Shown here: piece by piece, positions 1 through 30,188 of the stretch
Layout of the letters: each line of letters starts with the position of its first letter
Position numbering within the stretch: the stretch's first letter is position 1
Virus record (IMG/VR): IMGVR_UViG_3300045988_133025
Coordinates: 1-30,784 of that record
Reading direction: 5' to 3' (one strand)
Origin: a virus
Length of the DNA stretch: 30,784 nucleotides
Notes under the pieces: model-generated
What the model was told of the DNA's origin: nothing
Databases searched by the model: none
The model's input: the letters and a program-made list of their open reading frames with translations, nothing else
Position numbers and translations under genes: made by a program

Positions 1-55
1 CCTAAACTATCTAAGGATGCTCAGTTAGGAGCATTATTACCATTAGATACAAGAA
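1..55. repeat. 55-nt terminal direct repeat, identical to 30730..30784; circular-assembly overlap
   Basis: Read directly: cctaaactatctaaggatgctcagttaggagcattattaccattagatacaagaa occurs at both ends. It lies inside a continuous reading frame (the fibre gene), so it is an assembly overlap rather than a physical end. Confidence 0.95.
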
Positions 56-3000
56 TCTGCCCACTAGTACCACCTGAAGTAGGAGCGTAAAGTCTAACCT
101 CAACACTATCTGATGAATAAAAATTATTTATAGTACCGTTTACAACTAATTGTTTAGTTTTAAGATCTTTTAGAGATCCATCTCCCATCGTTACATTAGT
201 ACTAGTACCTCCATCACTGATAAATTTTATAGCCGATACACTTCCTGGAAAAGAAGCATTTTGAGCATTATCTCAAGAATATAGTTGACCTACTTTAGAC
301 ATATTGTTAGGCATTTTTCAACCAAAAGTACCATATCCAGAAATTCTATAGACTGTTAGTTGTCCACTATAGTTTTCATTAACACTTTTAGTTGAAAATG
401 TAAACCTTAGTTTCGAATATTGAGAAGCTTGACTTGGGGAATTGTTATAATATATAGAAGATGTCAAAGCTCTAAAATTAGGTCCCGATCACCCCCGTAA
501 AACAGCATCCTGAGATATTATATCTCAAGATTCAGAACTAGGATTATATGCTTCTATAAAGCAATTATAACCAGAGCCGTTAGTAGACACATATATATAT
601 ATTCAATCAATAGTACAATACCTGTCACTATTATTTATAGTAAGTCTATATTGAGTGGTTGTGCTAACATCTTCTGTATCTATTAATTGTAGACCATACT
701 TATTATCTTGTGAAGTAAATAAACTTATAAGTCTACTACTCCCCTGAGGATCTTCAGTTCACAATTCTCCGTTGTTTTTACTTATTTCTCCATATAAATC
801 AGTACTTTTTATAAACGCTAATTTATCAGAACAATACTCTCCAATATATGAAGTAATTCCATATGGTACAGTATTAGAAGTTGCAGTGTCAACAGTAGGC
901 CCTCCTACACTAGTTATAGGTACTTTTCCCCATTCAGGAGCTGATCTTCCATTTGAAATTAATACTTGTCCTGCTGTTCCAGGAGTTGTAGGTCCATACA
1001 ATAATTTAGAAGACCCATTTGAACATAATACCCTGTGTCCATTATTTTCCGAAGTTTTAAAACCTTTTGCTGTTATGTATGTAAGATTACTGGCCCCATC
1101 CTTAAATTGGTATTCTGTTATAGTGTTGTTAGTATTTTGCTCCCCAGTAGAGTTTTTATGATTAATTACTAGCCTTCCTCCTTTAAATGTCTGTGGTATA
1201 TAGTTAAATTCATCTGACGTTACTGTATTCATATCTAGGAAAGTTAATTTCCTAAATGTTGGTACCCCAGATGTGCCACTTGGAGCTGCTCACACTGTAT
1301 TAGCAGTTTGTGGACTTAAAGATGATCCTAATTCTACATTTCCTGTAAGTATACTGCCAGAATTAGTGAATATAGAACTTGGCAGTACTAACTTAACTGA
1401 GTTAACTAAATCAGGTTTATCTGTCACTCCTGACCAAGGCACACTAGATGCTGCTCCCGCTGTATAAATAGAGTAGCCGTCTTCACTATTTAACTTAGAA
1501 GAATCAATAACAAAATACATATGACCTGTATCTTTCTCTTTAACAGTATCGCCTTCTTGTACTTGTTCAGTGGTTAAAGCTAGTCTTGCTGCTTTATTTG
1601 CAACTATTACTAAACGCTCCAGTGCTCCCTTAGGCAATCTTTCAATATCAATAACTCCCGAGGTAATTTTACCAGCATCTATACCATTAGCAACCCCTAT
1701 ATCTACAATATGTCCTTTCTCATCCTTAGTAATAGAATTTATAATAGTTCCAGATGTAGCACTCCCTCCAACAGGAGTGTAGTGATTTGCAGCACTAGTA
1801 ACCTTGCTATCTGGAGTGTCTATATTACCTGATCCTAGGATACTTTCACCATTAATAGTTTTAATATTAGTTCCAGAAACTAACTCTCCTTGGAATTCTT
1901 CATCATAAGTTTCTACCATAACTGGTTGATTTTCTATAATATATGCAATCAGAGTTATGTTACTAGTTCCTGATAAATATGTTGCATAAGCAACAAAGCT
2001 TCTCTGAGATTCTGAAGAGGAATACTGTCAATAATTAGAGGTTAACGTCGTTTCAGCAGTTTTAATTCTAATTAAAACTGCTCTATCACTTGCCGCAGCT
2101 TCTGCAACTCTATTAAAATCTGTCTCATTTGGTATTTGTTCATTTTCTACCGTAATAGAAGGAACATCACCTACATTAATATTACCATCTCCTAATAAAG
2201 AAAGATTGTTAATTGTTCTAATTGATTCTCCACTAACAAGAATATCCTGTTTAGTAGCAATTGCAGAGGTATTACTAGTTACTTGCTCTTGTAATGTATC
2301 AACTGTACTTTTATCTGCCTTTAATGCCAAATCAGAAGTAGTTGCATAATTACCTGCAGCTTGAATACCAAGAGCAGCAAGAGTTTTATTTCCAGACAAT
2401 TCAACTGAATTAATCTGTGGTTTATTTGTCAACTGATTATAATCTCCAGTTCCTACAGATATTGATATTTCAGAAGTATCGACACTTATGTTACCATTAG
2501 CTACTAAAACTGCAGATACCTCAACGATTGTAGAATCATCTTTAAGATATATTCCTTTTAAATCTAATGATTCGTTGTTTTCAATAGCAACTAAAGGAAG
2601 AACTACTACTTTGCCTTCGTAAGTAATCTCGGCAAATAAATAGAACTCTAAATTAGACTTAATAAAAGAATATACATAAGCTTGATGTTCTGTATCATTT
2701 TCATCTAAATGTAAAAATAAATGATTATTAAATGCAGATATAACATTATCTACAATTCGTATATTGGCTCCTGCTGTTAATTTATCTTGTTTTTTAGAAA
2801 TAGCTGTATTAATTGCACTGTTAATATTGTCTATTTCTTCTTTAGTATACTTATCATTAAGAATACCAAATACTTGAGATGTTAAAATACCAGAAGCATT
2901 AGTACTTGTATTATATCCAGGAAGCTCAACTGCTTGTCCAGTTTGATTACCTAAAGATGGAGTAATAGTCAATTTAGTAGGTATTGCTTGAACCTGTATT

Positions 3001-3494
3001 GCTGGAACTATGTTCGTTGAGGCTTCTAGAGTCTTACCATTTAAAGACGGCTTATTATCTATTGAACTATAATCAGCAGATATAGTATTTCCAGATATAT
3101 TGATTCCATTACCTTCAACTAATTCATCTTGTTTTCCAGCTAAACCTTCAGTAACAGATTCATTAGTAGCAAATCCTTGACTATTTACTCATTCTTCTGT
3201 AGCATATCCATCTAAGCTAGTAATATACCCACTATCATTAGTCAATTGACTAGTTTTAGTAGGTATATTGCTAGTAGATGCTAATCCTAACTCACTTGCA
3301 GTAAGATTCCCATTTAAAGATACTCCGTTTATTTCTGGCTTATTTTGCAGATCTTGATAATTATTAGTTCCTAAATCTTCTCCATTTAAAAGAGCTATAT
3401 TATCATCTTTATCTATTACTAAGGCTTTGGTTACATTATCTCTTGTAATAGTGTCTGCCTCAAGTACATTTAAATAGGGTAATAGATTTTCCAT
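1..3494 (-). CDS. Tail fibre / receptor-binding protein, N-terminal about 1164 codons; continues across the circular junction to 30591 (1210 aa in total)
   Basis: ATG at 3494..3492 overlaps the upstream TAA (TAATG). Track pieces 3189..3494, 2028..2972, 1290..1919 and 759..1232 plus the unlisted stretches share one frame. They are separated only by TGA (lowest coordinates 3189, 2028, 1290, 759, 525, 489, 318, 273, 21). Hand translation of gaps 2973..3188, 1920..2027 and 1..758 met no TAA or TAG. Fibre-type motifs NKP(E/Q/S)(I/L)NG..L.G recur. Confidence 0.8.
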
Positions 3495-3736: not shown

Positions 3737-3764
3737 ATTATATAATTTTTATTATTAATGTCTA

Positions 3765-3803
3765 TAAAACAAAATAAGGGGCAAGTAAATTAATACTCGC
3801 CCC
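3765..3803 (-). terminator. Rho-independent terminator after the tail-tube-like gene
   Basis: Hairpin 3778..3803 (GGGGCAAGT / ACTCGCCCC, one mismatch, 8-nt loop). On the minus strand it is followed by TTATTTTGTTTT. Confidence 0.7.
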
Positions 3804-3814
3804 TCTTTCTGTTA

Positions 3815-4360: not shown

Positions 4361-5095
4361 TTATTCGTATTTCCACTTTCATTTATAACCAAAACAAGAA
4401 GATCTTTTACCATTACATACATCTGGAATATGAGAACGCTTACTATTAAATGATTTAGCTGCATTCATTATACAATTCCATTCTTTAATAAATTCTCCAT
4501 CTAATGAATACTGCAATACTGGTTTACCATACTTATTAATCATAGCAGCACTGACACTTTTACTAAGTTTTTCTTTGGTAGCATCACTATGATGTTTCCC
4601 TCACATATTTCCCTTCTCTCCTTTTTGAGCTTCAGATATTTTGCGTTTATGTCCCTCAGAAAGTTGTTTACCTATATTATGTATAGGATCAATCCATCTT
4701 TCTGGATGATTCTTCATATATTCTCTCTGCTTTTCTATTCTCTCAAGAGATAACTTAACACCTTTATGTGATTCACTTATCTTTTTTCTAGATTCATCAG
4801 ATACCACTCTATTTAATTGACCTCCAAAATCAATATTATAGCCAAACTCAGAATCATAAGACTTATACTTCTTTATATAGTACTTTTCCCAATTAGTCTC
4901 TAAAGTCTTTAATACCTCTATATTAAAAGATTCTTTACCGTATTTTAATACTGCAGATTTTAGATGAGCATTGCCTCTCTGATGAAGAGACATATGCTCA
5001 CTAAATCTTTGTCTTATATTTCTTATAGTTTGACCTATGTAAACTTTGTTATTTATAGTATTTGTAATTATATAAACGTTCCCAATTCGGTTCAT
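4361..5095 (-). CDS. GIY-YIG homing endonuclease (free-standing), 244 aa
   Basis: N-terminus GNVYIITNTINNKVYIGQT...RF.EH. NUMOD3-like GKHHS..TKEKLS and a C-terminal IENR1-like QYSLDGEFIKEW...CNGKRSSCFGYKWKWKYE appear only when TGA at 4601..4603 and 4379..4381 is read as Trp. Stop is TAA at 4361..4363. Confidence 0.85.
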
Positions 5096-5138: not shown

Positions 5139-6038
5139 TTAAGCTTTTGCACCAAGTACGATCTCATCAGGGAAAGCAACTTGTACACCAGCGTTAAATT
5201 CAATAGCTAATCTAAATTCTCTGAAATCCTGCGAATACCACATTTCGAATTTCTCTTCGTCATTCATCATATCGCAGCCATAGAAGAAGTTCTTGTCAAG
5301 CTGACCAGCAACGATCTTGTCAGTTCCGTTAAGACCATTAACAGCGATTACTTTAACCTGCGAACCAGGAAGCATAATCTCACCGTTAAGATTCTCACCA
5401 CTATAATGGAAGTAGTTCTTAACAACTAACTCCTGGACGAATTTACGGAAGGTATCAGCGCCTACTAAGATAGAAGCACCATCAAGTACTTTCTCAGGAA
5501 TAGCATTATAAACCTTCATAACGTCATCGTAAGCAGAAGTACCAGCAATCGTTACTTCAACAGTACCAACAGCATTTTTTAAGATCTTTAACAGACCATC
5601 GAAATACTTAAGGTTGTTCGTACTAGAAGTAGTATCACCTTGCCAGATAGCGGTTTCAATAGTGGCTTTAACATTCTCAACTACACCACTAATAAAGTCC
5701 TCTTCGAAAGGAAGCGTTTTCTGACCAGCAGCAACGCGAACCTGATACTGAGTCCAATATTTAAGCATAGCTTTGTCGCAATAAGCCATATTAATCTTGA
5801 TATTTCCAGTCGTAAGAACTCGTTGTGAAAGAGTCTGCGTTCCAGCCTCATCCCATCCACAAGTCAGACCATCTCCAAATTCAACATCAGTTGAAAGTAA
5901 GTTAAGAGCAGCTGAAGTTTTAATATCAGTCTGTAAGTTAAATAAACTAGCACTCTTAGCTTTTAATACAGCCTCTTTAATAAGAGGTAATCTACGCTGC
6001 TCAACATAAGCAGTCAAAGAAGTCATTACAGGATTCAT
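5139..6038 (-). CDS. Major capsid protein, 299 aa
   Basis: Intact ORF directly downstream of the protease-scaffold pair (an HEG intervenes). Size and position are typical of an HK97-fold capsid protein. Codons are G/C-richer. There are 4 Trp, all TGG, and no TGA. Confidence 0.7.
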   Translation of the reverse strand: MNPVMTSLTAYVEQRRLPLIKEAVLKAKSASLFNLQTDIKTSAALNLLSTDVEFGDGLTCGWDEAGTQTLSQRVLTTGNIKINMAYCDKAMLKYWTQYQVRVAAGQKTLPFEEDFISGVVENVKATIETAIWQGDTTSSTNNLKYFDGLLKILKNAVGTVEVTIAGTSAYDDVMKVYNAIPEKVLDGASILVGADTFRKFVQELVVKNYFHYSGENLNGEIMLPGSQVKVIAVNGLNGTDKIVAGQLDKNFFYGCDMMNDEEKFEMWYSQDFREFRLAIEFNAGVQVAFPDEIVLGAKA

Positions 6039-6044: not shown

Positions 6045-6554
6045 TTAATTTTGAAATAAATGATTTCTATGTGTTTTTGCCCTACCAGCTAAAACATTAT
6101 CTACACATTTAGGATTATATCCATCTTTCTTTAATTCTTGTCTATTGTAATAGACTTTTACTAAATTTCCATCTAAAGAATAACACTTTATACCTTCGTA
6201 TGATTTACTTCAGGTAACTCCAAGTCTAGCTTTACTGATTGATATTTTAGAGTCTTCTGTATGATGTTTCCCATAAAACGGATTATTAATTCCAGTATGA
6301 TTGTGTCCTTTTCTTTTACCTCCGTTTAATCCTCCAGGTTCTTGATTCATACATAAAGGATCTGTCTTTCAAAGATTGCCAATTCAATATGTATCAACTG
6401 TTCCGTATTTATCGAAATAAGATTTACAAAACCGACCGCTTCCCCTATAAGCTTTGTCATTTTCAGGCTTATATTTAACTGTTCGTTTTCCTATATAATA
6501 TTTTCCAAAATGATTAGGATGAAGGAAGTCGATTCTATAAATATAATGATACAT
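6045..6554 (-). CDS. GIY-YIG homing endonuclease (free-standing), 169 aa
   Basis: There is no ORF here in the standard-code track. With TGA=Trp (6384..6386, 6369..6371, 6210..6212) it reads MYHYIYRIDFL..GKYYIGKR...NPFYGKHHTEDSKISISKA...YSLDGNLVKVY. The ATG overlaps the scaffold TAA (TAATG). Stop is TAA at 6045..6047. Confidence 0.8.
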
Positions 6555-7169: not shown

Positions 7170-7763
7170 TTAATGTTTAACTCTTTTTATTTTTCTCAAC
7201 ATTTTTTGAATCTCTTTAAGTTCCTCATATTCATCAGATTGTCTTTCTAAAGTAAACAATCCCTCAATAGAGAATCCTTTAAACTTGCCAGCTTTAATTG
7301 CATCCCATATAACAGGATTATTTACTTTATAAGTAGCAAATAATGAACCATCTGGACAATCAGCAAATTCAACTGGATTAATTCCTCTATCTATATCTTT
7401 AATATATAGCTCTTGAAGAATTATTCCAGGAATTACCGAATCTTCCAAATGTTCAATATTTACATCAGTAGTTCTCTTATCATACATCATTTTTTCAGCC
7501 ATTAAACGGAGAGTTTCTTTATCATATTGAATATAATATTCTCCGTTTTTACTATCCCGTCTAAATATAGGTATATCACATACCATTAAACAAGAAGTAA
7601 CTATATGTTTTTCTTCATCCATCGAGAACTTCTGAGATTCCCCAAAAGCAAGCCAATTAACTTGGGTTGCAGGTTTACTGGTCAATGCTACGAACTCTAT
7701 TCCATCACAATCATCAGCAATAATTGCTTGATATAATGGAAGATCATTATACATTTTTTCCAT
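7170..7763 (-). CDS. Prohead protease, XkdF-like, 197 aa
   Basis: DVNIEHLED...GSLFATYKVNNPVIWDAIKAGKFKGFSIEG matches the XkdF-type phage protease pattern. It sits just upstream of the scaffold and capsid genes. No TGA. Confidence 0.6.
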   Translation of the reverse strand: MEKMYNDLPLYQAIIADDCDGIEFVALTSKPATQVNWLAFGESQKFSMDEEKHIVTSCLMVCDIPIFRRDSKNGEYYIQYDKETLRLMAEKMMYDKRTTDVNIEHLEDSVIPGIILQELYIKDIDRGINPVEFADCPDGSLFATYKVNNPVIWDAIKAGKFKGFSIEGLFTLERQSDEYEELKEIQKMLRKIKRVKH

Positions 7764-7842
7764 TTTTTATTAATATATAAGCTATTTTAAAAATGTAATA
7801 TTGTTACAATCTTTTATTTTTGTATATTTATATACTATCAAA

Positions 7843-7865
7843 TGTCAAGTTTTTTACTCAAATTT
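7843..7865. promoter_or_regulatory. Conserved intergenic motif, copy A2 (TGTCAAGTTTTTTACTCAAATTT)
   Basis: One of four near-identical copies (7938, 17012, 30189). It forms the start of a ~50-nt unit (7842..7892) that ends in the inverted TTGACAT and is homologous to 17012..17052. Confidence 0.6.
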
Positions 7866-7894
7866 GTATCTAAGATAAATAAATTTTGACATAG

Positions 7895-7938
7895 CACTAC
7901 TATATAAGCACTGATAATCAGCAACTTACATAGTAGTG
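7895..7938. other. Stem-loop (9-bp stem CACTACTAT / ATAGTAGTG, 26-nt loop) between motif copies A1 and A2
   Basis: Complementary arms at 7895..7903 and 7930..7938 read directly. The loop holds a small inner CTGA/TCAG hairpin. Confidence 0.5.
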
Positions 7939-7960
7939 TGTCAGAAATTTTACTCACTTT
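7938..7960. promoter_or_regulatory. Conserved intergenic motif, copy A1 (GTGTCAGAAATTTTACTCACTTT)
   Basis: A more diverged copy. It overlaps the tape-measure stop codon (7959..7961). On the minus strand it directly precedes the 7895..7938 hairpin. Confidence 0.5.
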
Positions 7961-10298
7961 AGAAACTTGCATTTGATTCTGTAACTGCAACTTTAGTTTG
8001 AGCATTAGTAATATCACTCTCAACTACATAACATTTAACAGGTTGATTCAATTCATCAGTCTCTTTATTGCCAAGTAAGTTTCGAGTATATTCTACAGGA
8101 GCAGTATTTAAAGCAGCTGGTGCTGTAGTTCCTGCATCACTTCCAGAACCTCCAGATGAAGGTAATTGTTCATTCTGGATAGCTTTTACATTAGCAATAC
8201 CAGCTATAACAGCAGTGGCAGCAGCAATAGGAGCAAGAATAGGACCTACAAATGGAATACCTACCATAGCTTTATATGCACCTTGAGCAGAACTGATAGT
8301 ATCAATGATAGCTTGAGTAGTAGCTAATGCTTTATAAACTTTAAATGATTTCTCTCTTTGCTTCTCCGATTTTGAATCGTCACTAGCTTCTTGTTTAAAT
8401 ACATTAGCTAAAGCTCCACTTAAAGAAGAAGCTACATTCATAGTAGCTTGAATAGCTTGCTGCTTTTTAGCTTGTCTATCTTTAAATGCTTGCAGATCTG
8501 CTTCTTCTCTTGCATTAGCTGCTTCTGATAAAGCTATATCATTAGCTTCCTGTTGCAATTTAATAGCTTGAGATTGATTAGCATATTCTTGTTCTGTTAT
8601 TAACTTATTGTTATATTGCTCATTTAAGATAGCTTGCTGTTGAGACATTAATTCATTTTCTCTTGTAATCCTATCTTTAGTAAGATTATATAACTGTTCA
8701 TTATAAGCTAATGTGTCTTGATACTGTCTTTGAATATCTACTCCAGATTGATAGAAATCCGTTGAACCAAATTGTTGAACTCTAGTTTCATAACTTCCAG
8801 ATTTACCTGCAGATAATGCAGCTTCTTTATTTGCAAATAATTGAGATTCCCTATCTTGCATTTCTTGTAATGCAGATAATCTATCTTGAAGCTCTGTTTT
8901 ATAAATTTCTCTCTGATCTTCTAAATATTCTTTATTATATGCATCATTTACTTGTTTAACTCTTTTTAAATATTCCTCTTGAGTTAATTCTTTTTTATCA
9001 AGTAGCCATTTTAAATCATTTAATTGTAACTGATAATTTTCTTTTAAAATTAAATTTTCTCTATCTGTTTCACTTAATAAAGTTTTTTCATTATCAGACC
9101 AATATTTATCAATAGCTGCTTTTTTAGTTTTTATTTCATCTTGAAGTTTATCTAAAGCCTGTTTTCTAGCTCTTGCCGCTTCTTCTTCTGCTTTTTTTCT
9201 ATCTTCAAGAATTTTATTTCCTGTTTTTACAAGATTTTGATAATCCCTTAAAGGATTTTTAGTCTCGTCTAAGTATTTAGTGTTATTTGCTAAACTTTCA
9301 GAAACTCTTTGTAATTCTAATCTCGCCTCTTTTACATCCTTCCCAGTTACTTTTTTTAAGAATTGTTGTCTATATAATGTATTTTTAAATAATTCTGAGA
9401 TTTCCTCTTCTGTTTTACCAAATCTTGTACCTATTGATAGTAAATCTTTATCATAAGCAGTTAGGGCATTCCTAAATGCCTTATCTAATTCTATAATATC
9501 TTTCAAAAATGCCTTAACTTTCCTTTCTTCAAACGTTTGAAGAGTAACAGCAGCTCCTATTTTTGATAATTCCTTATATGCATCAGTAGCTTTAATTACA
9601 TTCTCTATTTCATCTTTTAATTCAGGATTTAATTTAATAAGACTATTATATTCCGCCTCTCAAAATGATTCTTTAGCTCGAGTTCTTAAATTCTCATTTC
9701 TTTGTCTAATATTTTCTATTTCATCGCTTGTTAATTTAGCTTCATCTTTTAGTGAAGTAAGTTTATCTATAAGCAAACCAACTGCTACAAGTAGAGCACC
9801 AATTCCTGTTGATACTAATGCTGCCTTAAATCCATTCATAGCAACTGATGTACCAGTTATTGCTACAGATAATGCTTTAAATGATTTTACTCCATTAAGA
9901 ATACCTTCACCTAAACCTTTTAATCCTCCAATTCCTTGAACTATAGCAATTGCTGCTTGCAATTTAACCATAGTTTTTTGAAGATTCTCTGTATCTTTTC
10001 CAAATAAAGTAAATGCTGCACTAACAGCTGAAACTCCTCCAGCTAAACCTCCTGCTACTTGATTGATACTATCAAATGCTTTTACGGCATTTACAGTCTT
10101 ACCTTGCATAGATTCTGTAGCAACACCTAACTTATTTTGAACATTAACAAGTTCTTCAAGTTTTTTAGTATAATCAGTACTACCAATCTCAAGATCTTCC
10201 AGTTCAGCCGTCAAGCCAGCTACTTCTTCTCGTAGCTGCTTGATCGACTTTGAACTAGTTTTAGTATCGATTGATATAACCTTTTTTATTTCTTCCAT
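7959..10298 (-). CDS. Tape measure protein, 779 aa
   Basis: Track pieces 9660..10304 and 7959..9506 are in frame and joined by one TGA (9660..9662); gap 9507..9659 translates without stops. The protein has a long coiled-coil core. It also has Gly/Ala-rich hydrophobic blocks (AGGLAGGVSAVSAAF, IGALLVAVGLL, VGIPFVGPILAPIAAATAVIAGIA), typical of tape measure proteins. The likely start is ATG at 10298; the track's start at 10304 is TTG. Confidence 0.65.
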
Positions 10299-10831
10299 TT
10301 CCAAATATATTTATAAGCAGTTTTACGTTTACCAGAAGCGCATCGTCCTATATTAGTATTAATAAACCCTAAAGATCTTTCAACCTCCATTGTAGATGGT
10401 CATTCTTTAATAAAAGTTCCATTTAAATCGTATTGTAAAATTGGTTTTGAACAAGGACCATTAACAAACATTTCAGAATGTGATTTAGAACTTTTTATTT
10501 TACTTTCTATTGTTCACTTTGTTCCTGATCTTCCTGATTCTCCACCTTCAGATTGATTATATCCTTTATTTGGATTTGTAGTATCGTATACTTTTATTAA
10601 TATCTTTTCTAAAGTACAAGCACAAGCTTTTGGTAAATTATTTCTTATTATTAAATGAGTAAAAGAATCTCATCCATACTTTTGAATTGCATTTCAGAAA
10701 TGGATATTTTGTTTATAGCCAATTCCTTTACTTCATCTCTTTTTAGGACTCTTCTTAGTTATACCTACATATTTTTTATTGTTTATTTTATTTATATGTA
10801 TATAAACGCAATAACATCTTTCTTCAGCCAT
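10286..10831 (-). CDS. GIY-YIG homing endonuclease (free-standing), 181 aa
   Basis: There is no minus-strand ORF here in the track. With five TGA=Trp it reads CVYIHINKINNKKYVGIT..KRWSKG.GY...FWNAIQKYGWDSF.HLII...QYDLNGTFIKEW...GKRKTAYKYIWKWKK. It is a paralogue of 24637..25140 and 27973..28626. Its last 13 nt overlap the tape-measure start. Confidence 0.85.
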
Positions 10832-16932: not shown

Positions 16933-16984
16933 TTTTACTAAAATATATCATTCTCATATTGAGTATCTAAACACAAATAGGGAG

Positions 16985-17009
16985 ATTTACTCCCTATTTA
17001 AGTGTCAAC
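16985..17009 (-). terminator. Hairpin (10-bp stem AAATAGGGAG / CTCCCTATTT, 5-nt loop); probable terminator or structured RNA element
   Basis: Read directly. On the minus strand it sits 2 nt downstream of motif copy B and is followed by GTGTTTAG. Confidence 0.5.
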
Positions 17010-17011
17010 TT

Positions 17012-17034
17012 TTTACTCACTTTTAGTAGTTAAA
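17012..17034. promoter_or_regulatory. Conserved intergenic motif, copy B (GTGTCAACTTTTTACTCACTTTT)
   Basis: Third copy of the motif. It starts a ~41-nt unit ending in TTGACAT (17046..17052). The whole element is bracketed by an 8-bp inverted repeat, CTAAACAC (16977..16984) and GTGTTTAG (17057..17064). Confidence 0.6.
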
Positions 17035-17196
17035 ATAAATAAAAATTGACATTTTAGTGTTTAGCTTTTCAAAGATCTATTTGTCTTTTTTCTTCTTTCC
17101 CTTTATCAAGTAAGTAGCAAATAATATTCAAAAACTCTTGAATCTGCATATCACATACTTGATGTCAATTTAACCTTGTTACTTCGCTAACTCTAT

Positions 17197-17856
17197 CTAT
17201 TCAACAAATCCAGTTCCATTTTTGACTAAATTCAGAGTTTGTCTCGCCTGAACTATCCTCTTCCGTAATTGATATTTCTTTACTGGATCTTTCTCCTTTT
17301 TCATCAATTTCTTCATCTCCCGCATTGAAGAGATTAGGGTAGCTACTGTTAAGCTCTCTAATAATTTGCAAAAAAAAACCATTACATCAGTAACAATAGT
17401 AATTGGAATCTTATCATATAAATCTTCTGCTAGTTCCATTACATCATAACCCTCATTATATTTCTTTCCTTTAGGAATTAAAAAGCATAAGAATATATAC
17501 TTTTGATTTTTTTCATATTCTTTATAGAAATTCTGAAAATCAATATATTGAGCAGCAGTCATATTTCTGAGATTTAATTGAACTGTATATTTATTACCAT
17601 AAATCTCATACTCAGTTTCAGGAACTTTAGATTTATACTTATTTACAATAAAATGAATCTTACTAAGTTCTGCAGATAATTGATCTACTGTCATATTTAA
17701 TAGAGTATCTCTAGCTTTATCAGGATTATCTGTAAGTAATGCATAGATTTCAATACTTCTATCTAAATCTGTCATTTTTGCATCACTCATAATAAATGAA
17801 TTTAAAGCTTGAAATTTCTTTAAAGATACTTCTTCCCATTTAGTTGCTACATTCAT
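17197..17856 (-). CDS. Hypothetical protein, 219 aa
   Basis: Intact ORF. Its ATG lies 1 nt after the terL TAG. Stop is TAG at 17197..17199. I recognise no family confidently. Confidence 0.6.
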   Translation of the reverse strand: MNVATKWEEVSLKKFQALNSFIMSDAKMTDLDRSIEIYALLTDNPDKARDTLLNMTVDQLSAELSKIHFIVNKYKSKVPETEYEIYGNKYTVQLNLRNMTAAQYIDFQNFYKEYEKNQKYIFLCFLIPKGKKYNEGYDVMELAEDLYDKIPITIVTDVMVFFCKLLESLTVATLISSMREMKKLMKKEKDPVKKYQLRKRIVQARQTLNLVKNGTGFVE

Positions 17857-17857: not shown

Positions 17858-19105
17858 CTATTTAATTTTAATATTATAATGCCCTTTGTTTGTATTTAAT
17901 GAGTCATAGGCTAACATTAATGAAATTACTGTATCATCATTAAATCCTGATGGAGCATTATAACTAACATTTCCAGTTTTTGGATTATATGAAGCCTCAT
18001 ATAGTCTTAACTCATTTAAAAGTTTATCATCTTTTAATAATCCTATCTTTTCATTCTCCAAAGCAGCTTGAAGCTTATTAACTATATCTGCCTTACTCTT
18101 ATTAGTAGTTAAGAATCGTAATATCCTGATTTTCTGATTCTTCCGAACTAACATATCATAAAATACTGAACCAATTGAGTTTTGCTCAACTTGTACAATC
18201 TTTATAAATCCTTGATACTCAGTTAATATATTTGTTAATAAATCAACTTGTTCTGTTGGAGTTTTATCGTTGAAATACTTTATAAAGACCATTTGTCCAG
18301 ATTCATTTAAAGCAGTAACACAAGTATAGTCTTTACCACTTCCAGTAGCCCAGTCTATTCCTATATAAAGACTCTGATAATCTGGTTTTTTCTCAATTAT
18401 ACAGTTAGCTATATTATTAAATAAACAGCCATCATCATCTGCAAATTCCCCCAAATATTCAGTTTTAAATTTATTTTTTGAGGTTGTAAGTCGATACATC
18501 TCTAACTTCTCTTTATCTAAAAGCATAGATGTATCTTCTAAAGCCCAATCAAATGATTTATAGAACTTATCATATTTTGGATCTAATCCTTTAGTAAAGC
18601 AATCATAAAAGAATCCTTCTCGAAATCTTGGAGTACTGATAATTAATATTGGCGCAGATCATACATCAGCTATAGGAGTTAATATTTCGAATACTTCATC
18701 TGATATATATGCAGCTTCATCTATTACTAATAATCCGCTTACTGTAAATCCTCGTAATGAATCTTTTTGTTCTGCGGATTTAAATAATATTTCACTTCCA
18801 TTAGTAAACTCTATTTCTAATAAGGACTCATTTTTCTTTTTAATAAGGTCACATTCCCCAAGAGCTTTTATTATTTCCTTAAATATTTTTCTACTATTAG
18901 TTAAAGTTGGCTCCACTATACAACTAATACTACCTGGATAATTTATAGAGAATCTTAATAATTCATTTTCTGCCATAAATGACTTTCCGCATTGTCTTTT
19001 AGCTTTTACTGTAAATATTTTTCCAGACCTATAAGAGTCATTCATTGCAGTATGTACTTTATTTTGATAGATAAATGGCCTATATCCTTTATATATCCTT
19101 GTCAT
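17858..19105 (-). CDS. terL: Terminase large subunit, 415 aa
   Basis: Pieces 18659..19105 and 17858..18526 are in frame, joined through a TGA (18659..18661). Walker A-like KAKRQCGKSF and Walker B-like LLVIDEAAY are followed by a nuclease-half pattern (IGIDWATGSGKDYT...NDDTVISL). Stop is TAG. Confidence 0.8.
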
Positions 19106-20175: not shown

Positions 20176-20307
20176 TTAATTATTAGAATACTTCCAAATA
20201 ACCCCATAATTCCAATTTACTTTGTTTCTACAAAACTTAGAAATAGATCCATTATCATATCCTAAGTATCTTTTTATTTCCCTTACAGAATCTCATATTT
20301 TAACCAC
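20176..20307 (-). pseudogene. Stand-alone IENR1-like (HEG C-terminal DNA-binding) mini-ORF or HEG remnant, about 43 codons
   Basis: It reads (V)VKIWDSVREIKRYLGYDNGSISKFCRNKVNWNYGVIWKYSNN*. This has the F.S..EA...LG.....I...C.gK.....G..WKY signature found at the C-termini of the intact HEGs here. The only candidate start is a GTG, it contains one TGA, and it overlaps the end of the sigma region-4 ORF. Confidence 0.3.
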
Positions 20308-20548
20308 ATATTTTATTTCTAATGTTAGCTATTACCCTTGCTATGGTAGTATGACTAATTCCTAATATTCTTCCCACTTCTCTATAACTACAATATTCAG
20401 CATATAATATGATTACTGTCTTATCTGCCTTATTAAGCTCAAGCCATTTTGGATATATACTTAATAGTCTATCATCCATATTTGTAAACATACTATAGTC
20501 TATTTCATACTCAGTAAGTAAATCGTCAATATTAATCTTCCGTTTCAT
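20300..20548 (-). CDS. ECF-type sigma factor, region 4 half only, 82 aa
   Basis: LELNKADKTVIILYAEYCSYREVGRILGISHTTIARVIANIRNKI is a typical sigma-70 region 4.2 HTH. There is no region 2 in this ORF. Confidence 0.65.
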   Translation of the reverse strand: MKRKINIDDLLTEYEIDYSMFTNMDDRLLSIYPKWLELNKADKTVIILYAEYCSYREVGRILGISHTTIARVIANIRNKICG

Positions 20549-20840
20549 TTAATCAATCCTCAAATTCGTCATTTTGTTGTTCAAGTGGTTCTTTAACAAT
20601 CTCATAATATTTCTTATAGGTATAGTAATATCTACTTGTTTTACTAAACCAATAATTCTTAAATAATCTTGTAATCCAAAATTTCAATTCATTTTTGCTA
20701 TCAAGCTGATTTAATTTTGGATTTGAATACTCTAGTATTTCTACAAAAATCATTTGAACACAGTCATCATCTGCACCAAATTTTTGCTTAAGTTCCATAA
20801 TAAATGGATAGTACTTTTCTACAATTTCGTTATTACTCAT
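20532..20840 (-). CDS. ECF-type sigma factor, region 2 half only, 102 aa under table 4 (the track's 20553..20840 if TGA terminated)
   Basis: DDDCVQMIFVEILEY...ELKFWITRLFKNYWFSKTSRYY resembles sigma region 2.1-2.4. TGA at 20553..20555 is followed by 6 more sense codons and then TAA at 20532..20534. The region-4 ORF starts in the +1 frame at 20548. Confidence 0.55.
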
Positions 20841-21150
20841 ATGTTCACATATATCCTCCTGCTGTTTTTCGCTGCCCTTTAAGAACCTTTACAATATTTC
20901 TAGATTGTATATTTAGTTCTCTCTCAGCATCTATTGTTGAATCCCATCTTTTAATAACTATTCCATTTAGTAATTGCAGTATTGGTTTCTTATGACTATA
21001 TCCAGCTCGCAGATTATGAGTTCCATAATTATTATTATAATTATAAGTACACCATTCTAAATTACTTACATTATTATTTGATTTATTTTCATCCTTATGA
21101 TTTATACAAGGATAGTTATGCCATCAGTTCCAATTTGGTAGTTTTCAAAA
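20833..21150 (-). pseudogene. 5'-truncated HNH_3-type homing endonuclease without a start codon (about 105 codons)
   Basis: It reads ...HNYPCINHKDENKSNNNVSNLEWCT...KKPILQLLNGIVIKRWDSTIDAERELNIQSRNIVKVLKGQRKTAGGYMWTYE*. This aligns to the C-terminal two-thirds of the intact HNH at 26827..27318. The NUMOD4 N-terminus is missing, and no ATG, GTG or TTG precedes the HNH motif. The frame opens right after TAA at 21151..21153. Confidence 0.5.
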
Positions 21151-21162
21151 TTAAGTATTCTT

Positions 21163-21839: not shown

Positions 21840-21936
21840 AATTTATAAATTTTAATTGTTAATATTATATCTTTTATTGTAATACAAAGATAATGAAAAG
21901 TTTTTAATTCTCAAAATATTTAAGCAATTATTTTTA

Positions 21937-22730: not shown

Positions 22731-22764
22731 TAGTATTACTTTTATTATAGTATTACTTTTATTA
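22731..22764. repeat. Perfect tandem 17-mer x2 (TAGTATTACTTTTATTA)
   Basis: Read directly: 22731..22747 equals 22748..22764. Confidence 0.9.
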
Positions 22765-22766
22765 AT

Positions 22767-22802
22767 GGGTACTGAATCGACAGGTCGGTCGGGTACTGAA
22801 TC
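22767..22802. repeat. 12-mer GGGTACTGAATC x2 at 24-nt spacing, flanking GACAGGTCGGTC
   Basis: Read directly: 22767..22778 equals 22791..22802. Confidence 0.9.
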
Positions 22803-22820
22803 AATATATGTCTAAAAATA

Positions 22821-22845: not shown

Positions 22846-23020
22846 CTTTTAGCACTAATAAAAGTAGTAATTATTTCTAATTACAAGGCAAAGATAACAT
22901 TATTTTTTTAAAAATCAAAATTTTTTACAATAAAAAAATAACTTTTTATTAAAAATATTTTATTAAAAATAATATTACAATTCTTGAATATATTATATAT
23001 TAATAAAAAAGAATAAAATT

Positions 23021-23806
23021 ATGAATTGGAAATCAACAAACATTAAAGGATATTCAGTTAGTGATGAAGGTCAAATAAAGAACGAACTAACAGGAAAAGT
23101 ATTATCTCAGTTTAAGAATAATATGGGGTATTATTTAGTAAGCATACAAGATAAAAAGTATCTTGTACATAGATTAGTAGCAGAGGCGTTTTTAAATAAA
23201 CCTAATAAATGTAATATAGTAGAACATAAAGATGATGATCCCACAAATAATTGTGTAGATAATCTTATGTGAAGTACTCAGAAATTGAATTTAAATAGGC
23301 AAGGAAGGCTTGAAAAGTTAAAAAGGTATTATCAGTCCAATGAATGAAAAGAAGCTAGAAAAAAGGCTTTAGAAACAATGAAAGCAAATGGATTTAAAAA
23401 GACTAAATCAGATAAGCAAAAGGCTAAAGAAGCGGCCAGATTAGATAGAATATCTAAAGAAAGAGAGAATATAAGACCTACTCTCGACCAACAATATGAT
23501 GCGTTTATTAATCCTTTAATTGATTTACTTAAATCTGGATATAGTTTAAAGAGAGCTGCACAATATTTTGGAATAAATGATACTACTGGCATTACTTATT
23601 TTTCTAAAAGATATTATGAAGAAACAGGAATTAAACTTATTACATATAAGATTAAAAAATCGTCGTTTTCAAATGCAGAAAAATTAATGAATAAAATTAA
23701 AGAATTATATAATCAAGGTTTAACTGTAGAGGAAATAAGTGAAGAAGTAAATAGATCAATTAATATTGTTAATAAGTATATAAAACTATGGAAGATTCAT
23801 ATTTAA
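23021..23806 (+). CDS. HNH_3-type homing endonuclease with NUMOD4-like N-terminus and two C-terminal HTH modules, 261 aa
   Basis: Track ORFs 23021..23272 and 23378..23806 are in one frame, joined through TGAs at 23270..23272 and 23345..23347. It reads WKSTNIKGYSVSDEGQIKN...VHRLVAEAFL...VEHKDDDPTNNCVDNLMW, where the conserved NL.W Trp is a TGA. Confidence 0.8.
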
Positions 23807-24246: not shown

Positions 24247-24250
24247 ATGA

Positions 24251-24278
24251 AAATAGGAGGGCATATACCCTCCTATTT
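24251..24278. terminator. Bidirectional terminator between the convergent plus module and the leftward unit
   Basis: 11-bp perfect stem AAATAGGAGGG / CCCTCCTATTT with a 6-nt loop and T-rich flanks on both strands. The TAG stop of the HNH gene (24273..24275) lies inside the stem. Confidence 0.75.
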
Positions 24279-24596
24279 CTGTTTAAATCTTTGATAGTTG
24301 CTAACCGATGAATGAATAGCTTTATGACAAACTGAACATAATGTTATTAAATCCTCCAAATGTTCCTGCTCATTATAAAGGTTAAGATACGTTCGATGAT
24401 GTACCGATAAAGACCTATTTCCGCCTTCTTGAACACATCAGTTACAAGTTTGGCAGTGATAGTTATCTCGCAATAATATTTGCTCTCTAATGGCCTTAAA
24501 ATCCTTTGATCTTATATATCTTTGGTACTTTAAATATTCTTCACTTCTTACTTTCTTTTTCGTCTTATGAAGCAGTTTACTTGATTTAGAGTCCAT
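24273..24596 (-). CDS. Classical HNH endonuclease, 107 aa (possibly packaging-associated)
   Basis: No track ORF. With one TGA (24438..24440) it reads ...REQILLRDNYHCQTCNWCVQEGGNRSLSVHHRTYLNLYNEQEHLEDLITLCSVCHKAIH, which has the HNH/CxxC pattern. Confidence 0.75.
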
Positions 24597-24636: not shown

Positions 24637-25140
24637 TTACTTTATAGCCTTCTCTAATTGCTTTAGAATAAGAACATCGTCTTTATATGCACCTACTTTT
24701 TTAGCTCTAGGATTATTGCCAAAAGAATTATTTAAATAACTCAAATCTTTACCTTTATGACTATTACTCATCTTTTTTCTAGTCTCTTCTGATGGGTGTC
24801 TTCCAATACATTTGGCTCTAATCTTATCTTTTCTTTCCTGAGTGAATACAATACCTAAGGTGCCGTCACCTCCATCTGTAGCATTATATCCATATTTTGG
24901 ATCTCTAGTATTATATTTATGAATAAGAATTTTTTCTAAAGTCTTGGCACAAGGTTCTGGTAAATTATCTTTAATTATAATATGTTCAAAATTATCCCAG
25001 CCGTATTTTGTTATAGCGTTTCAAAACGGCTGTTTTCTATAACCAAGACCATTTGCTCATCTTATTTCTGGATTCTTACAAGTAATGCCAATATATTTCT
25101 TACCATTAATCTTGTTTAAATGAATATATATACTATACAT
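24637..25140 (-). CDS. GIY-YIG homing endonuclease (free-standing), 167 aa
   Basis: No track ORF. It reads MYSIYIHLNKINGKKYIGIT...IRWANGLGY...FWNAITKYGWDNFEHIII with two TGAs; the KYGW Trp is TGG (24997..24999). The ATG overlaps the endolysin 3' end. Stop is TAA at 24637..24639. Confidence 0.85.
24861..25009. repeat. Dispersed repeat, about 85% identical to 28332..28480 (GIY-YIG core of paralogous HEGs)
   Basis: Aligned by eye over 149 nt. This includes a 33-nt perfect run, ATTATCTTTAATTATAATATGTTCAAAATTATC, at 24964..24996 and 28435..28467. Confidence 0.85.
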
Positions 25141-26826: not shown

Positions 26827-27318
26827 TTAAATGTATTTAAAAGTTAATTTATTCTTATATTTTCTACCTGTTTTTAAACAGTAACGTATACTTTTAGAGT
26901 CTATATTTAACCTACGAGCACATTCATTAATAGATGGATATTCTATATCATTACATAATATTTTATGAGATTGCTTATAAATTGAATACCTAGTATTATA
27001 TGAAATAGTACACCATTCTAGATTACATACTCGATCGTCATTCTTTACTTCATTTTTATGATTAACAACTGGATAGTTACTTGTATTAGGTATAAACGCT
27101 TGTGCTACTAGTCTACATATTCTGTAATAGTAATACCTACCATCTTTCATTAAAGTAACTCTCCTATATCCATCCTTATCCATACTAGGCTTTAAAATAC
27201 GCTCATTTACTGGGCAAATACACCCATTCTTACTAAGTCTAGCTCTTGCAACTGATTTAACTTCTCCAGAATCACTCACTTGGTAATAACCTTCAAAGTC
27301 TTTAATATCTTTCCACAT
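26827..27318 (-). CDS. HNH_3-type homing endonuclease with NUMOD4 N-terminus, 163 aa
   Basis: It reads MWKDIKDFEGYYQVSDSGEVKS...GYRRVTL...RLVAQAFIPN...VNHKNEVKNDDRVCNLEWCT. No TGA. Confidence 0.85.
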   Translation of the reverse strand: MWKDIKDFEGYYQVSDSGEVKSVARARLSKNGCICPVNERILKPSMDKDGYRRVTLMKDGRYYYYRICRLVAQAFIPNTSNYPVVNHKNEVKNDDRVCNLEWCTISYNTRYSIYKQSHKILCNDIEYPSINECARRLNIDSKSIRYCLKTGRKYKNKLTFKYI

Positions 27319-27320: not shown

Positions 27321-27983
27321 TTACTTTTTCTTATTCTTATTTGAACTTGGAAAATCATATCTAGATCTTAGAGAATTATTATATAGTCCCTTCGAGCGTA
27401 TACCTCCGAGTCACAAACCACAGCTACTCGAACTGTATAAATTAGGATAGAGATCTTTTAACGGCTTATATTCATACAATTCAGGAAAATCATTATAATA
27501 TGTAATTACCCAATTTTGCAATCTTGTTTTAAAGAAATCTGCTTTATCTCTATAATACTTCTTAATAAGATTAACTTGATTAATATCAGAAGTTAAATTT
27601 TTCTCATCATCAGTCCTCATAACCCCAAAATTACTCAGCTTAAAAGAGATAGGAATAGTAATTTCACTTAATACTTGATAAAGTAAATAAGGCTGAATAT
27701 AGTAATCTAGCAATTCTTTATATCTATGATTTTCTGGATCATCTATAGATGTTGGATCATAAATAGGAGGTTCTATTGGATGAACTGGTTTATTTGGATC
27801 TTTCCAATCAATTACTAATTTCTGAATCTTCTCTAAGAGCTTAGTTCCAATTAATGACTGAAGCTCAATATCTTGTGCAAGTTTGATTGCAGACTGAAGA
27901 TATTTACCAGAAACATTATTATCTAAATTAGATTCTGATTTTATATAATCTTCAGATATTAATAGTACGTTTCTATATTCCAT
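27321..27983 (-). CDS. Hypothetical protein, 220 aa; possible head-tail connector or adaptor
   Basis: Track ORF 27411..27983 continues through a TGA (27411..27413) for 29 more codons to TAA at 27321..27323. The N-terminus (LISEDYIKSESNLDNNVSGKYLQSAIKLAQDIELQSLIG) resembles gp6-type connector proteins. Confidence 0.35.
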
Positions 27984-29683: not shown

Positions 29684-29693
29684 TATTTTACTT

Positions 29694-30086: not shown

Positions 30087-30162
30087 ATTTTACAGCAATT
30101 TACATTAGTTTTACATATCTTTTTCTTAAAATATAAACCAATTTACTAATGTATTAAAATAA

Positions 30163-30188
30163 TTAAAGGAGACCGAAGCCTCCTTTAA
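30163..30188 (-). terminator. Rho-independent terminator-like hairpin
   Basis: 9-bp stem TTAAAGGAG / CTCCTTTAA with an 8-nt loop. On the minus strand it is followed by TTATTTTAAT and sits immediately downstream of motif copy C. Confidence 0.6.

What the first reader, a model, noticed from the sequence alone, without database searches (positions are those of the whole stretch)
7842..7960. Conserved 22-23-nt motif (TGTCAAGTTTTTTACTCACTTT), four copies at module boundaries, usually followed by a hairpin
The copies are at 7843..7865, 7938..7960, 17012..17034 and 30189..30211. On the transcribed minus strand the motif reads AAAGTGAGTAAAAAACTTGACA.

In three of the four copies a stable hairpin begins 0-2 nt downstream (7895..7938, 16985..17009, 30163..30188). 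They mark these boundaries:
- tape measure to head genes;
- terminase block to tail genes;
- fibre block to portal block.

Two copies extend into a homologous ~41-51-nt unit with inverted ends, (A/G)TGTCAA...TTGACAT: 7842..7892 (51 nt) and 17012..17052 (41 nt).

A conserved linear box followed by a stem-loop recalls nut/put-type antitermination sites, or a phage-specific promoter or processing site, perhaps for the phage sigma. The embedded TTGACA has no properly spaced -10 element, so it does not read as a plain sigma-70 promoter.
Basis: partly seen in the sequence, partly recalled or inferred. Interest (0 to 1): 0.7.

Follow-up and report, generated by a model that had tools for sequence, protein, structure and literature searches.

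The report
Palindromic intergenic repeat at phage operon junctions
The 22-base motif is real, and is one half of a 50-base hairpin-forming repeat that one family of human-gut phages (which read TGA as tryptophan) carries between its gene blocks, usually just before a transcription terminator; it looks like operon punctuation, not a nut/put site or an ordinary promoter.

Summary
One copy is mis-placed by 9 nt: it lies at 17003..17023, not 17012..17034.

The motif is the 3' half of a 49-51-nt imperfect palindrome, TGTCAAG-T-rich...TAC...GTGAGTAAAAAACTTGACA. Full units lie at 7843..7891, 17003..17051 and 30189..30239. A right-half-only copy lies at 7939..7960.

In 46 related human-gut phage contigs there are 3-5 units per genome, at the same junctions. 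None lies inside a homologue of a window gene. The units vary far less than the flanking genes.

The arms covary (TGTCAA/TTGACA, TGTCTA/TAGACA, TGTAAC/GTTACA). The sense strand folds better than its complement in 22 of 25 variants, because of G.U pairs. At one junction the unit is inverted in about half the genomes. It is absent from a 59%-TerL relative with the same gene order.

The hairpins that follow differ between sites and look like ordinary intrinsic terminators.

Best reading (about 0.35): a lineage-specific, REP/PeSL-like punctuation element. It is transcribed at the end of a block and folds next to the terminator as a 3'-end stability or processing signal.

Nut/put antitermination, a sigma-70 promoter and a site for the phage's split sigma are not supported. 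Function needs RNA end mapping.

The parts
7843..7891 (-). Full 49-nt palindromic unit (IG1a), between tape measure and prohead protease. No terminator hairpin follows. TATACA lies 16 nt after the TTGACA arm.
   Evidence: (nhmmer 38.9 bits)
7939..7960 (-). Right-half-only copy (IG1b), AAAGTGAGTAAAATTTCTGACA. It overlaps the TAA stop of the tape-measure gene (7959..7961).
7895..7938 (-). Long A/T-rich hairpin after IG1b. In the predicted fold IG1b pairs with the left half of unit IG1a, which extends this hairpin (-42.5 kcal/mol, z = -6.8).
17003..17051 (-). Full 49-nt unit (IG2). It starts 2 nt after the stop (17054..17056) of an overlapping-frame extension of the 219-aa gene.
   Evidence: (43.0 bits)
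16976..17000 (-). GC-cored hairpin AAATAGGGAG-TAAAT-CTCCCTATTT followed by GTGTTT. Terminator-like.
30189..30239 (-). 51-nt unit (IG3) with exact right half and decayed left arm (CATCAG). It abuts the stop codon (30240..30242) of the 75-aa gene.
   Evidence: (30.9 bits)
30162..30189 (-). Intrinsic-terminator-like hairpin (12 pairs, loop 4) followed by TATTTTAAT.
30128..30136 (-). TATATTTTA box downstream of the terminator. Candidate promoter box (inferred). It and the leader that follows are kept in a 59%-TerL relative that lacks the unit.
16940..16948 (-). TATATTTTA box 7 nt before the ATG of the 159-aa gene. It is the most conserved part of this spacer across all forms (inferred promoter or initiation box).

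Best explanation
The motif is the 3' half of a lineage-specific 49-51-bp imperfect palindrome, of the REP/PeSL type, that sits only between genes at the junctions of the phage's transcription blocks.

Most likely mechanism: the unit is transcribed as the last thing after the stop codon of the upstream block. It folds into a hairpin of about 20 bp, A.U/G.U-rich, with a small apical loop containing UAC. This hairpin lies directly against a GC-cored intrinsic terminator. Together the two hairpins define and protect (or mark for processing) the 3' end of the upstream message and insulate the next block. The next block restarts from a TATATTTTA-type box just downstream.

The invariant purine strand GUGAGUAAAAA implies that a factor, or a constraint not yet identified, reads the sequence and not only the shape.

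Shown: the palindrome, covariation of the arms, the strand asymmetry of folding, strictly intergenic syntenic placement, low diversity, occurrence in both orientations, absence from more distant relatives, and the terminator-like nature of the following hairpins.

Inferred: that the unit acts in RNA, and that its role is 3'-end stability, processing or termination.
For: - **Significance:** 0 matches expected by chance.
- **Strand and position:** all 65 hits with 4 or fewer mismatches in 46 related contigs are on the transcribed strand. A profile search gives 140 hits, 3-5 per complete genome, none inside a homologue of a window gene, grouped at the same junctions.
- **Arm pairing:** 88% of cells are paired, 4 pairs change on both sides, and 0 of 500 shuffles reach the observed score. 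Slid controls give 31-58% paired.
- **Folding:** units fold with z = -2.5 to -3.9 alone and -4.1 to -6.8 with the adjacent hairpin. The sense strand is more stable than its complement in 22 of 25 variants, mean -11.1 against -8.0 kcal/mol.
- **Constraint:** nucleotide diversity of unit plus terminator is 0-0.07, against 0.1-0.47 in the flanking genes.
- **Placement:** units start 0-10 nt after stop codons.
- **Terminators:** the following hairpins match the terminator pattern or come close to it, and vary mainly in their loops.
- **Lineage-specific add-on:** a 59%-TerL relative with the same gene order has no unit at any of the three junctions. It keeps the leader and TATAT box at two of them; at the third the genes overlap (TAATG).
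Against: - **Orientation:** at IG2 the unit is inverted in 16 of 35 genomes. At site D in relatives it is antisense to the adjacent leftward genes. A sense-RNA role is therefore either not needed at every site or needs only the arm stem, which survives inversion.
- **Uneven conservation:** the right half is much more conserved than the left. Pairing alone does not explain this.
- **Uncompensated change:** a frequent AAAGTG/AATTTG difference weakens the inner stem without compensation.
- **No consensus fold:** RNAalifold on the MAFFT alignment finds no consensus structure. Register shifts and weak A.U stems may be the cause.
- **Not needed for termination:** two strong terminators in the window work without a unit.
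- **No expression data.**
Confidence: 0.35

Rival explanations
1. DNA-level promoter module (PeSL-like composite terminator/promoter). The right half is an A-tract UP element plus a consensus -35 (TTGACA) that fires outward. The palindrome would give two back-to-back -35 boxes.
For: - TTGACA is an exact -35 consensus preceded by AAAAAA.
- At IG1 a TA-rich hexamer lies 16 nt downstream in both arm types: TATATA/TATACA, and TATTAC after GTTACA.
- At site D the outward-facing left arm is followed by AATTAT or TATTAA at 17 nt, just before the start of the 573-aa gene, in 2 of 3 forms.
- A terminator followed by TAGACA-16-TATAAT at 3764..3737 shows that such cassettes exist in this genome.
- PeSLs are a published precedent (PMC2839356, PMC4122927).
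Against: - At IG2, IG3 and rightward at D the -10 position falls inside a GC hairpin (CTCCTT, TCTCCC, GCAGGA).
- The IG1 hexamers lack the conserved final T and were not listed by the scan.
- Arm covariation to GTTACA and TAGACA moves away from the consensus.
- The absence of SD sequences and the TTTG-N19-TATCTTTG early boxes suggest a Bacteroidota-type host, in which TTGACA is not the -35.
Confidence: 0.17
2. Double-stranded DNA binding site (operator or enhancer) for a phage regulator, for example the split sigma-like pair at 20300..20840. It would control the TATATTTTA boxes about 55 nt downstream.
For: - The invariant asymmetric core TGAGTAAAAA is conserved whatever the orientation.
- The distance from the right arm to the TATATTTT box is similar at IG3 (53 nt) and IG2 (55 nt).
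- The 102-aa and 82-aa ORFs joined together match a phage sigma-factor family (phrog_1740, E = 9e-7). The 82-aa ORF has a sigma-region-4-like HTH.
Against: - The recognition helix of the HTH protein is the same in genomes with TTGACA arms and with GTTACA arms. Single genomes mix arm types.
- There is no unit upstream of the terS/TerL block, where late activators usually act.
- Covariation within each unit fits a stem better than two half-sites 43 bp apart.
Confidence: 0.13
3. Largely selfish or neutral palindromic repeat, REP/MITE-like. It would have spread with its terminator to intergenic gaps by recombination or hairpin-mediated copying, with no regulatory role of its own.
For: - It is confined to the clade with TerL identity of about 79% or more, and is absent at the same junctions in 59-61% relatives.
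- Both orientations occur.
- The same AAAGTG/AATTTG difference is shared among different sites, which implies exchange between copies.
- Decayed copies exist: CATCAG in the window, TTTAAAG at IG2 in three contigs.
- A terminator loop is flipped in one relative, so palindrome flipping does occur.
Against: - Diversity is very low compared with neighbouring genes.
- Placement is syntenic and fixed; insertions are not scattered.
- No transposase or RAYT-like gene was recognised among the proteins scanned.
- Mosaic breakpoints are not concentrated at the units.
Confidence: 0.13
4. nut/put-type processive antitermination signal: a linear box plus stem-loop in the nascent RNA that modifies RNA polymerase so that it reads through terminators.
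For: - A conserved sequence lies immediately upstream of terminators on a genome transcribed almost entirely in one direction.
- With terminators inside the late region, some way of reading through or restarting is needed.
Against: - The hairpins after the box are not conserved between sites.
- The unit lies right before each terminator and after the genes, not after a promoter.
- It tolerates inversion.
- No N/Q-like protein was recognised, and there is no Rfam match.
Confidence: 0.07
5. Small RNA genes. The left arm (TTGTCA) and the apical TAC box (TACTAA, 17-18 nt later) would form a promoter. The conserved right half would be the 5' seed of a 55-60-nt RNA ending at the terminator.
For: - The TAC box is at a fixed distance from the left arm in all variants.
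- The most conserved part would be the seed, followed by a terminator of variable sequence.
Against: - The -10 candidates are poor (TACTAA, TACAAA, TACCAA).
- Arm covariation is unexplained.
- No complementary target (TTTACTCAC) exists on the transcribed strand of the window.
- IG1a has no terminator.
Confidence: 0.05

Closest known systems
REP/BIME palindromic intergenic repeats of enterobacteria
   Same: - Imperfect palindromes of 35-50 nt.
- Only between genes, often just after stop codons.
- Found in either orientation, in many copies, and lineage-specific.
- From general knowledge, REP hairpins stabilise the upstream mRNA.
   Different: - Only 3-5 copies, in a 31-kb phage genome, at fixed syntenic junctions.
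- No RAYT-type transposase was recognised.
- The sequence is unrelated.
- There is a long invariant purine strand.
PeSL composite promoter-terminator cassettes of T4-type phages (PMC2839356, PMC4122927)
   Same: - A repeated intergenic regulatory cassette in a phage.
- It combines a stem-loop terminator with an A/T-rich region and a TTGACA box.
- Copies exchange sequence with each other.
- Homing-endonuclease genes sit next to some copies.
   Different: - In PeSLs the stem-loop precedes a complete -35/-10 promoter. Here TTGACA precedes the terminator at two of three junctions and has no proper -10.
- The unit is itself a palindrome.
- Mosaic breakpoints are not enriched at the units.
RNase III processing sites between genes of T7 and of Bacillus phage SP82 (from general knowledge, not checked in papers here)
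   Same: - Sequence-conserved hairpins of about 20 bp in intercistronic regions of long phage transcripts.
- They leave a protective 3' hairpin on the upstream message.
   Different: - No cleavage data exist.
- The stem is A.U/G.U-rich with small bulges.
- The element tolerates inversion at one site.
lambda nut (boxA + boxB) and HK022 put antitermination sites
   Same: A conserved linear sequence with an adjacent stem-loop, on a one-direction phage transcript that carries internal terminators.
   Different: - The stem-loops are not conserved between copies and look like terminators themselves.
- Position is at the end of a block, not after a promoter.
- There is no N-like protein and no Rfam hit.

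Membership tests
nut site (boxA/boxB) | The same boxB hairpin (conserved stem and loop) in every copy | tested here: not met
   The hairpins at IG1b, IG2, IG3 and D differ completely in stem and loop. Within a site the variation is mainly in the loop.
nut site (boxA/boxB) | Located downstream of a promoter and upstream of the genes and terminators it controls, with an N-type protein encoded | tested here: inconclusive
   Units lie at the 3' end of blocks, 0-10 nt after stop codons. No N-like protein was recognised in the Pfam and PHROG scans of 29 proteins, but small ORFs of unknown function remain.
HK022 put RNA / any Rfam family | Match to a curated covariance model | tested here: not met
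   No family reaches its gathering score. At E <= 1 the only hit is a chance snoRNA match inside TerL.
sigma-70-type promoter | -35 hexamer, 16-18 nt spacer, -10 hexamer with A at position 2 and T at position 6 | tested here: not met
   At IG2 and IG3 the -10 position is CTCCTT or TCTCCC, inside the hairpin. At IG1 it is TATACA/TATATA without the final T. None of the copies is listed by the scan.
PeSL-type terminator/promoter cassette | Stem-loop terminator adjacent to the repeat | tested here: met
   30189..30162 matches the terminator pattern. 17000..16976 and 7938..7895 are stable hairpins.
PeSL-type terminator/promoter cassette | Repeats mark the recombination or indel junctions between genomes | tested here: not met
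   Breakpoints of near-identity tracts between the window and 46 relatives are spread over the genome and show no peak at 7.8, 17.0 or 30.2 kb. This was a crude 200-nt window test.
REP-like palindromic repeat | Imperfect palindrome, intergenic only, found in either orientation | tested here: met
   Arms pair in 88% of cells, with covariation. 0 of 140 hits lie inside homologues of window genes. At IG2, 19 are sense and 16 inverted.
REP-like palindromic repeat | Cognate Y1 (RAYT) transposase | tested here: inconclusive
   None appeared among the proteins scanned. Not every ORF of every relative was scanned.
RNase III-type intercistronic processing site | About 20 bp of double-stranded RNA in the sense transcript | tested here: met
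   Predicted stems have 17-21 pairs including G.U. This is prediction only.
RNase III-type intercistronic processing site | Cleavage at the site in vivo | not testable with these tools
   No transcript data are available.
Invertible promoter (inverton) | Both orientations on otherwise identical flanks in one population, with a recombinase | tested here: not met
   The two IG2 orientations belong to diverged alleles: TGTCAG type against TGTAAC type, about 70-75% identical by eye, with different flanks. No invertase was recognised. The segment between the arms is only about 25 bp.

The most novel reading that the evidence does not exclude
The unit is a new kind of distributed, factor-read RNA or DNA hairpin signal. 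A phage protein would recognise the invariant GUGAGUAAAAA strand on a stem of free sequence and decide, junction by junction, whether polymerase stops at the adjacent terminator. That would be a local antitermination or termination switch timing portal, tail and head blocks. Alternatively, the unit-plus-terminator cassette is a self-spreading mini-palindrome that colonises gene junctions of phage genomes by a hairpin-dependent mechanism.
Probability: 0.12. Interest if true: 0.7.

Novelty: new variant of a known kind. Interest (0 to 1): 0.45.

Why it matters
Gene expression signals of uncultured gut phages with a recoded stop codon are essentially unknown.

This element gives a concrete, conserved handle on how a 31-kb genome transcribed in one direction is cut into transcription units. 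It supplies three to five defined positions per genome where RNA ends, cleavage or protein binding can be tested in public metatranscriptomes or in reporters.

It also shows a regulatory cassette being added to gene junctions within one phage lineage. At one of these junctions the genes of a 59%-TerL relative with the same gene order overlap (TAATG). That bears on how phage operon structure evolves.

If it proves to be only a terminator-associated stabiliser, it is an ordinary kind of element in a new setting.

Tried and rejected
1. **Standard-code gene calls.** These break the genes. TGA is exchanged only with TGG in relatives, so code 4 was used throughout.
2. **Near and distant DNA searches of deposited phages.** Nothing related was found.
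3. **Motif scan of 185,579 species genomes.** Two hits, both unrelated in context and about as many as chance predicts. No prophage or host use of the motif was found.
4. **IMG/VR hits outside the family** (L009, L010, L014, L019, L023). These are chance matches to the degenerate pattern.
5. **Rfam,** at gathering scores and at E <= 1. Nothing relevant.
6. **RNAalifold on the MAFFT alignment of whole units.** No consensus structure was returned, because arm types are shifted by one column. Arms were therefore tested in register.
7. **Recombination-hotspot idea.** Not supported.
8. **Co-variation of the sigma-4-like protein with arm type.** None.
9. **Analogous repeats in more distant relatives** (L140, L151, L153). 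None found.
10. **Consensus promoter scan.** Fewer hits than in shuffles, so uninformative in this A/T-rich genome.
11. **Look-up of TerL by exact sequence.** The capsid protein and the 75-aa protein were used instead.
12. **TerL homology search.** Returned only unnamed metagenomic proteins, so it gave no host.
13. **Covariance model of 'motif plus hairpin'.** Not built, because the hairpins are not homologous between sites.

Full report
**1. Setting**

The window is 29% G+C. Read with TGA as a sense codon, coding on the minus strand rises from 21 to 27.7 kb. In orthologous genes of relatives, TGA is exchanged only with TGG: 78 and 40 cases, no other codon. TGA is therefore tryptophan (code 4). 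No tRNA gene is found.

Nearly all genes lie on the minus strand. Identified products:
- tape measure, 7959..10298
- prohead protease, 7170..7763
- capsid protein, 5139..6038
- large terminase, 17858..19105
- portal, 28616..29707
- an M15 peptidase
- several GIY-YIG and HNH homing endonucleases

The same genome occurs in human gut metagenomes as contigs of about 27-31 kb, so the window is close to a complete genome. Only 5 of 38 genes have anything like a Shine-Dalgarno sequence.

**2. The observation**

The 22-mer matches exactly at 30189..30210 and with two mismatches at 7843..7864. Shuffles gave no match. A copy with four mismatches is at 7939..7960. The third copy is at 17003..17023, which is 9 nt from the stated position; its hairpin shifts likewise.

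All copies fall in the intergenic gaps 7764..7958, 16933..17196 and 30087..30239. The second gap is really shorter. An overlapping reading frame continues from inside the 219-aa gene to a TAA at 17054..17056, 2 nt before the unit.

**3. What the motif belongs to**

IMG/VR holds a family of about 45 related contigs, most from one metagenome, with TerL 79-99% identical. I reassembled them from the fetched pieces.

Alignment of all hits shows that the conserved object is a unit of 49-51 nt. On the transcribed strand it reads TGTCA(A/G)-TTTTTATTT.TT.TTA-.TAC-...(A/G)(G/T)TGAGTAAAAAACTTGACA.

A profile search gives 140 hits, 3-5 per complete genome. None lies inside a homologue of a window gene. 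The hits fall into a few syntenic classes:

| Site | Position | Orientation |
|---|---|---|
| IG1 | before the protease | all sense |
| IG3 | before the 130-aa/portal block | all sense |
| IG2 | after the terminase block | 19 sense, 16 inverted |
| D (relatives only) | next to the start of a leftward 573-aa gene | antisense to the adjacent leftward genes |
| D' (relatives only) | inside that leftward operon | sense to that operon |

Sources.

The window has IG1a, IG2 and IG3, plus a right-half-only copy (IG1b) that overlaps the tape-measure stop codon.

**4. It is a hairpin-forming palindrome**

The ends are inverted repeats of 11-13 nt. Across unit variants they change together: TGTCAA/TTGACA, TGTCTA/TAGACA (two contexts) and TGTAAC/GTTACA. 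Uncompensated intermediates also exist, such as TGTCTA/TTGACA.

On arms placed in register:
- 88% of cells pair.
- Four pairs show changes on both sides.
- No shuffle out of 500 reaches the observed covariation score or percentage paired.
- Sliding the partner by 1-3 columns drops pairing to 31-58%.

The sequences are related, so this is supportive rather than proof.

Folding extends the stem through the T-rich left half and the purine-rich right half, with GUGAGU pairing AUUUAU through G.U pairs. An 8-nt loop carries the conserved UAC. Because of the G.U pairs, the unit's own strand is more stable than its complement in 22 of 25 variants (mean -11.1 against -8.0 kcal/mol). This points to a single-stranded, probably RNA, form.

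RNAalifold on the MAFFT alignment of whole units gave no consensus structure. The alignment shifts the arm types by one column.

**5. Context**

- At IG3 the unit abuts the stop codon. It is followed at once by a 12-bp hairpin and TATTTTAAT, which the scan lists as terminator-like.
- At IG2 it is followed after 2-3 nt by AAATAGGGAG..CTCCCTATTT GTGTTT.
- At IG1 the half copy IG1b is followed by a long A/T-rich hairpin, then by the full unit IG1a, which has no hairpin after it. In the predicted fold IG1b pairs with the left half of IG1a.

The hairpins are unrelated between sites and vary mainly in their loops within a site. Two other strong terminators, 3805..3776 and 24279..24250, have no unit.

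Downstream of the IG2 and IG3 terminators, 53-55 nt after the right arm, lies TATATTTTA. Apart from a low-complexity A/T 9-mer (TAATAAAAA), it is the only other 9-mer shared by three intergenic regions. It is preceded by TTTA at 19-20 nt.

**6. Constraint and history**

Nucleotide diversity of unit plus terminator is 0-0.03 at IG3 and 0.05-0.07 at IG2. The flanking genes show 0.1-0.47.

The unit is confined to this clade. A relative with 59% TerL identity and the same gene order has none. At the IG3 and IG1 positions it keeps only the leader with a TATAT box. At the IG2 position the two genes overlap (TAATG). A relative with a 61%-identical portal protein and a 55%-GC relative also have none.

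The unit with its terminator is therefore an addition that split formerly continuous operons.

The same AAAGTG/AATTTG difference occurs at four different sites without correlation within genomes, so copies exchange sequence. Decayed copies exist. In one relative the loop of the IG2 terminator is flipped, so palindromes do flip in this family. The two IG2 orientations, however, are old, diverged alleles and not a switch.

**7.

- *nut/put:* the hairpins are not a common recognised structure. The element lies after genes rather than after promoters and tolerates inversion. Rfam has no match.
- *Sigma-70 promoter:* at IG2 and IG3 the -10 position lies within the GC stem. At IG1 there is TATACA/TATATA at 16 nt, without the final T.
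- *Phage sigma:* the 102-aa and 82-aa ORFs joined together match a phage sigma family (E = 9e-7), and the second has a region-4-like HTH. So 'sigma halves' is reasonable. However, the HTH does not vary with arm type, genomes mix arm types, and there is no unit before the terminase block.
- *Recombination linker:* mosaic breakpoints are not concentrated at the units.
- *Host and TTGACA:* the early region has TTTG-N19-TATCTTTG twice. Together with the lack of SD sequences, and with TATATTTG boxes in a distant relative, this suggests a Bacteroidota-type host in which TTGACA would not be a -35 box. This is inference. The native TGA=Trp coding without a tRNA argues the other way, and the host remains open.

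**8. Verdict**

The finding is a real, conserved, lineage-specific palindromic intergenic repeat.

My preferred mechanism (about 0.35) is operon punctuation acting in the transcript. The unit hairpin, stacked on an intrinsic terminator, defines, protects or marks for processing the 3' end of the upstream block. Transcription restarts at the downstream TATATTTTA box.

Rival readings:
- outward-firing promoter module, 0.17
- protein-binding DNA site, 0.13
- largely selfish repeat, 0.13
- antitermination, 0.07
- small RNA genes, 0.05

The closest known things are REP elements, PeSL cassettes (PMC2839356, PMC4122927) and phage RNase III sites. It is not a member of any of these by sequence, and it differs from each in at least one defining respect.

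Noticed in passing
whole window: The genome uses TGA as tryptophan in early and late genes alike: 57 TGA against 73 TGG codons, no TGA stops, and TGA exchanged only with TGG in relatives. No tRNA gene is detected, so the source of TGA decoding is unexplained.
   Followed up: partly
20300..20840 (minus strand): Two ORFs of 102 and 82 aa overlap by 17 nt. Joined, they match a phage sigma-factor family (phrog_1740, E = 9e-7). The second has a sigma-region-4-like HTH. This may be a split or frameshifted sigma factor.
   Followed up: partly
17054..17330 (minus strand): A second reading frame stays open across the end of the 219-aa gene and runs about 50 codons beyond its stop, to a TAA 2 nt before the unit. 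It is conserved in relatives. This may be a programmed frameshift extension.
   Followed up: partly
22889..22919 and 21885..21915 (minus strand): The promoter-like pattern TTTG-N19-TATCTTTG occurs twice, both times in early intergenic regions and nowhere else on that strand. It resembles Bacteroidota -33/-7 promoters.
   Followed up: partly
16940, 19863, 30128 (minus strand); related TATATATTA near 7776: A TATATTTTA box recurs just upstream of the first gene of several late blocks. It is a candidate late promoter or initiation box. It is kept in a 59%-TerL relative that lacks the palindromic unit.
   Followed up: partly
22740..22810 (minus strand): The divergent intergenic region holds short direct repeats: GATTCAGTACCC twice and ATAAAAGTAATACTATA twice. 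These may be operators or an origin.
   Followed up: no
4361..5095, 6045..6554, 10286..10831, 24637..25140, 27973..28635, 26827..27318, 23021..23806, 24273..24596: The load of free-standing homing-endonuclease genes (GIY-YIG and HNH) is very high for a 31-kb genome. In relatives such genes sit directly after the IG3 and IG1 units.
   Followed up: partly
20841..21162 (minus strand): This 'intergenic' stretch reads like the C-terminal remnant of an HNH/NUMOD endonuclease, so it is probably a decayed gene.
   Followed up: no
relatives: site IG2 terminator (contig IMGVR_UViG_3300045988_105798): The terminator hairpin has the same stem but its loop is reversed (ATTTA instead of TAAAT). Small palindromes therefore flip their loops in this family.
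   Followed up: partly
1..3494 and L145: The fibre ORF runs off the start of the window. In a 39.5-kb ENA contig it is 1722 aa, whereas other assemblies of the same phage are 30.8 kb. The longer contig may be a concatemer or a variant with a longer fibre module.
   Followed up: no
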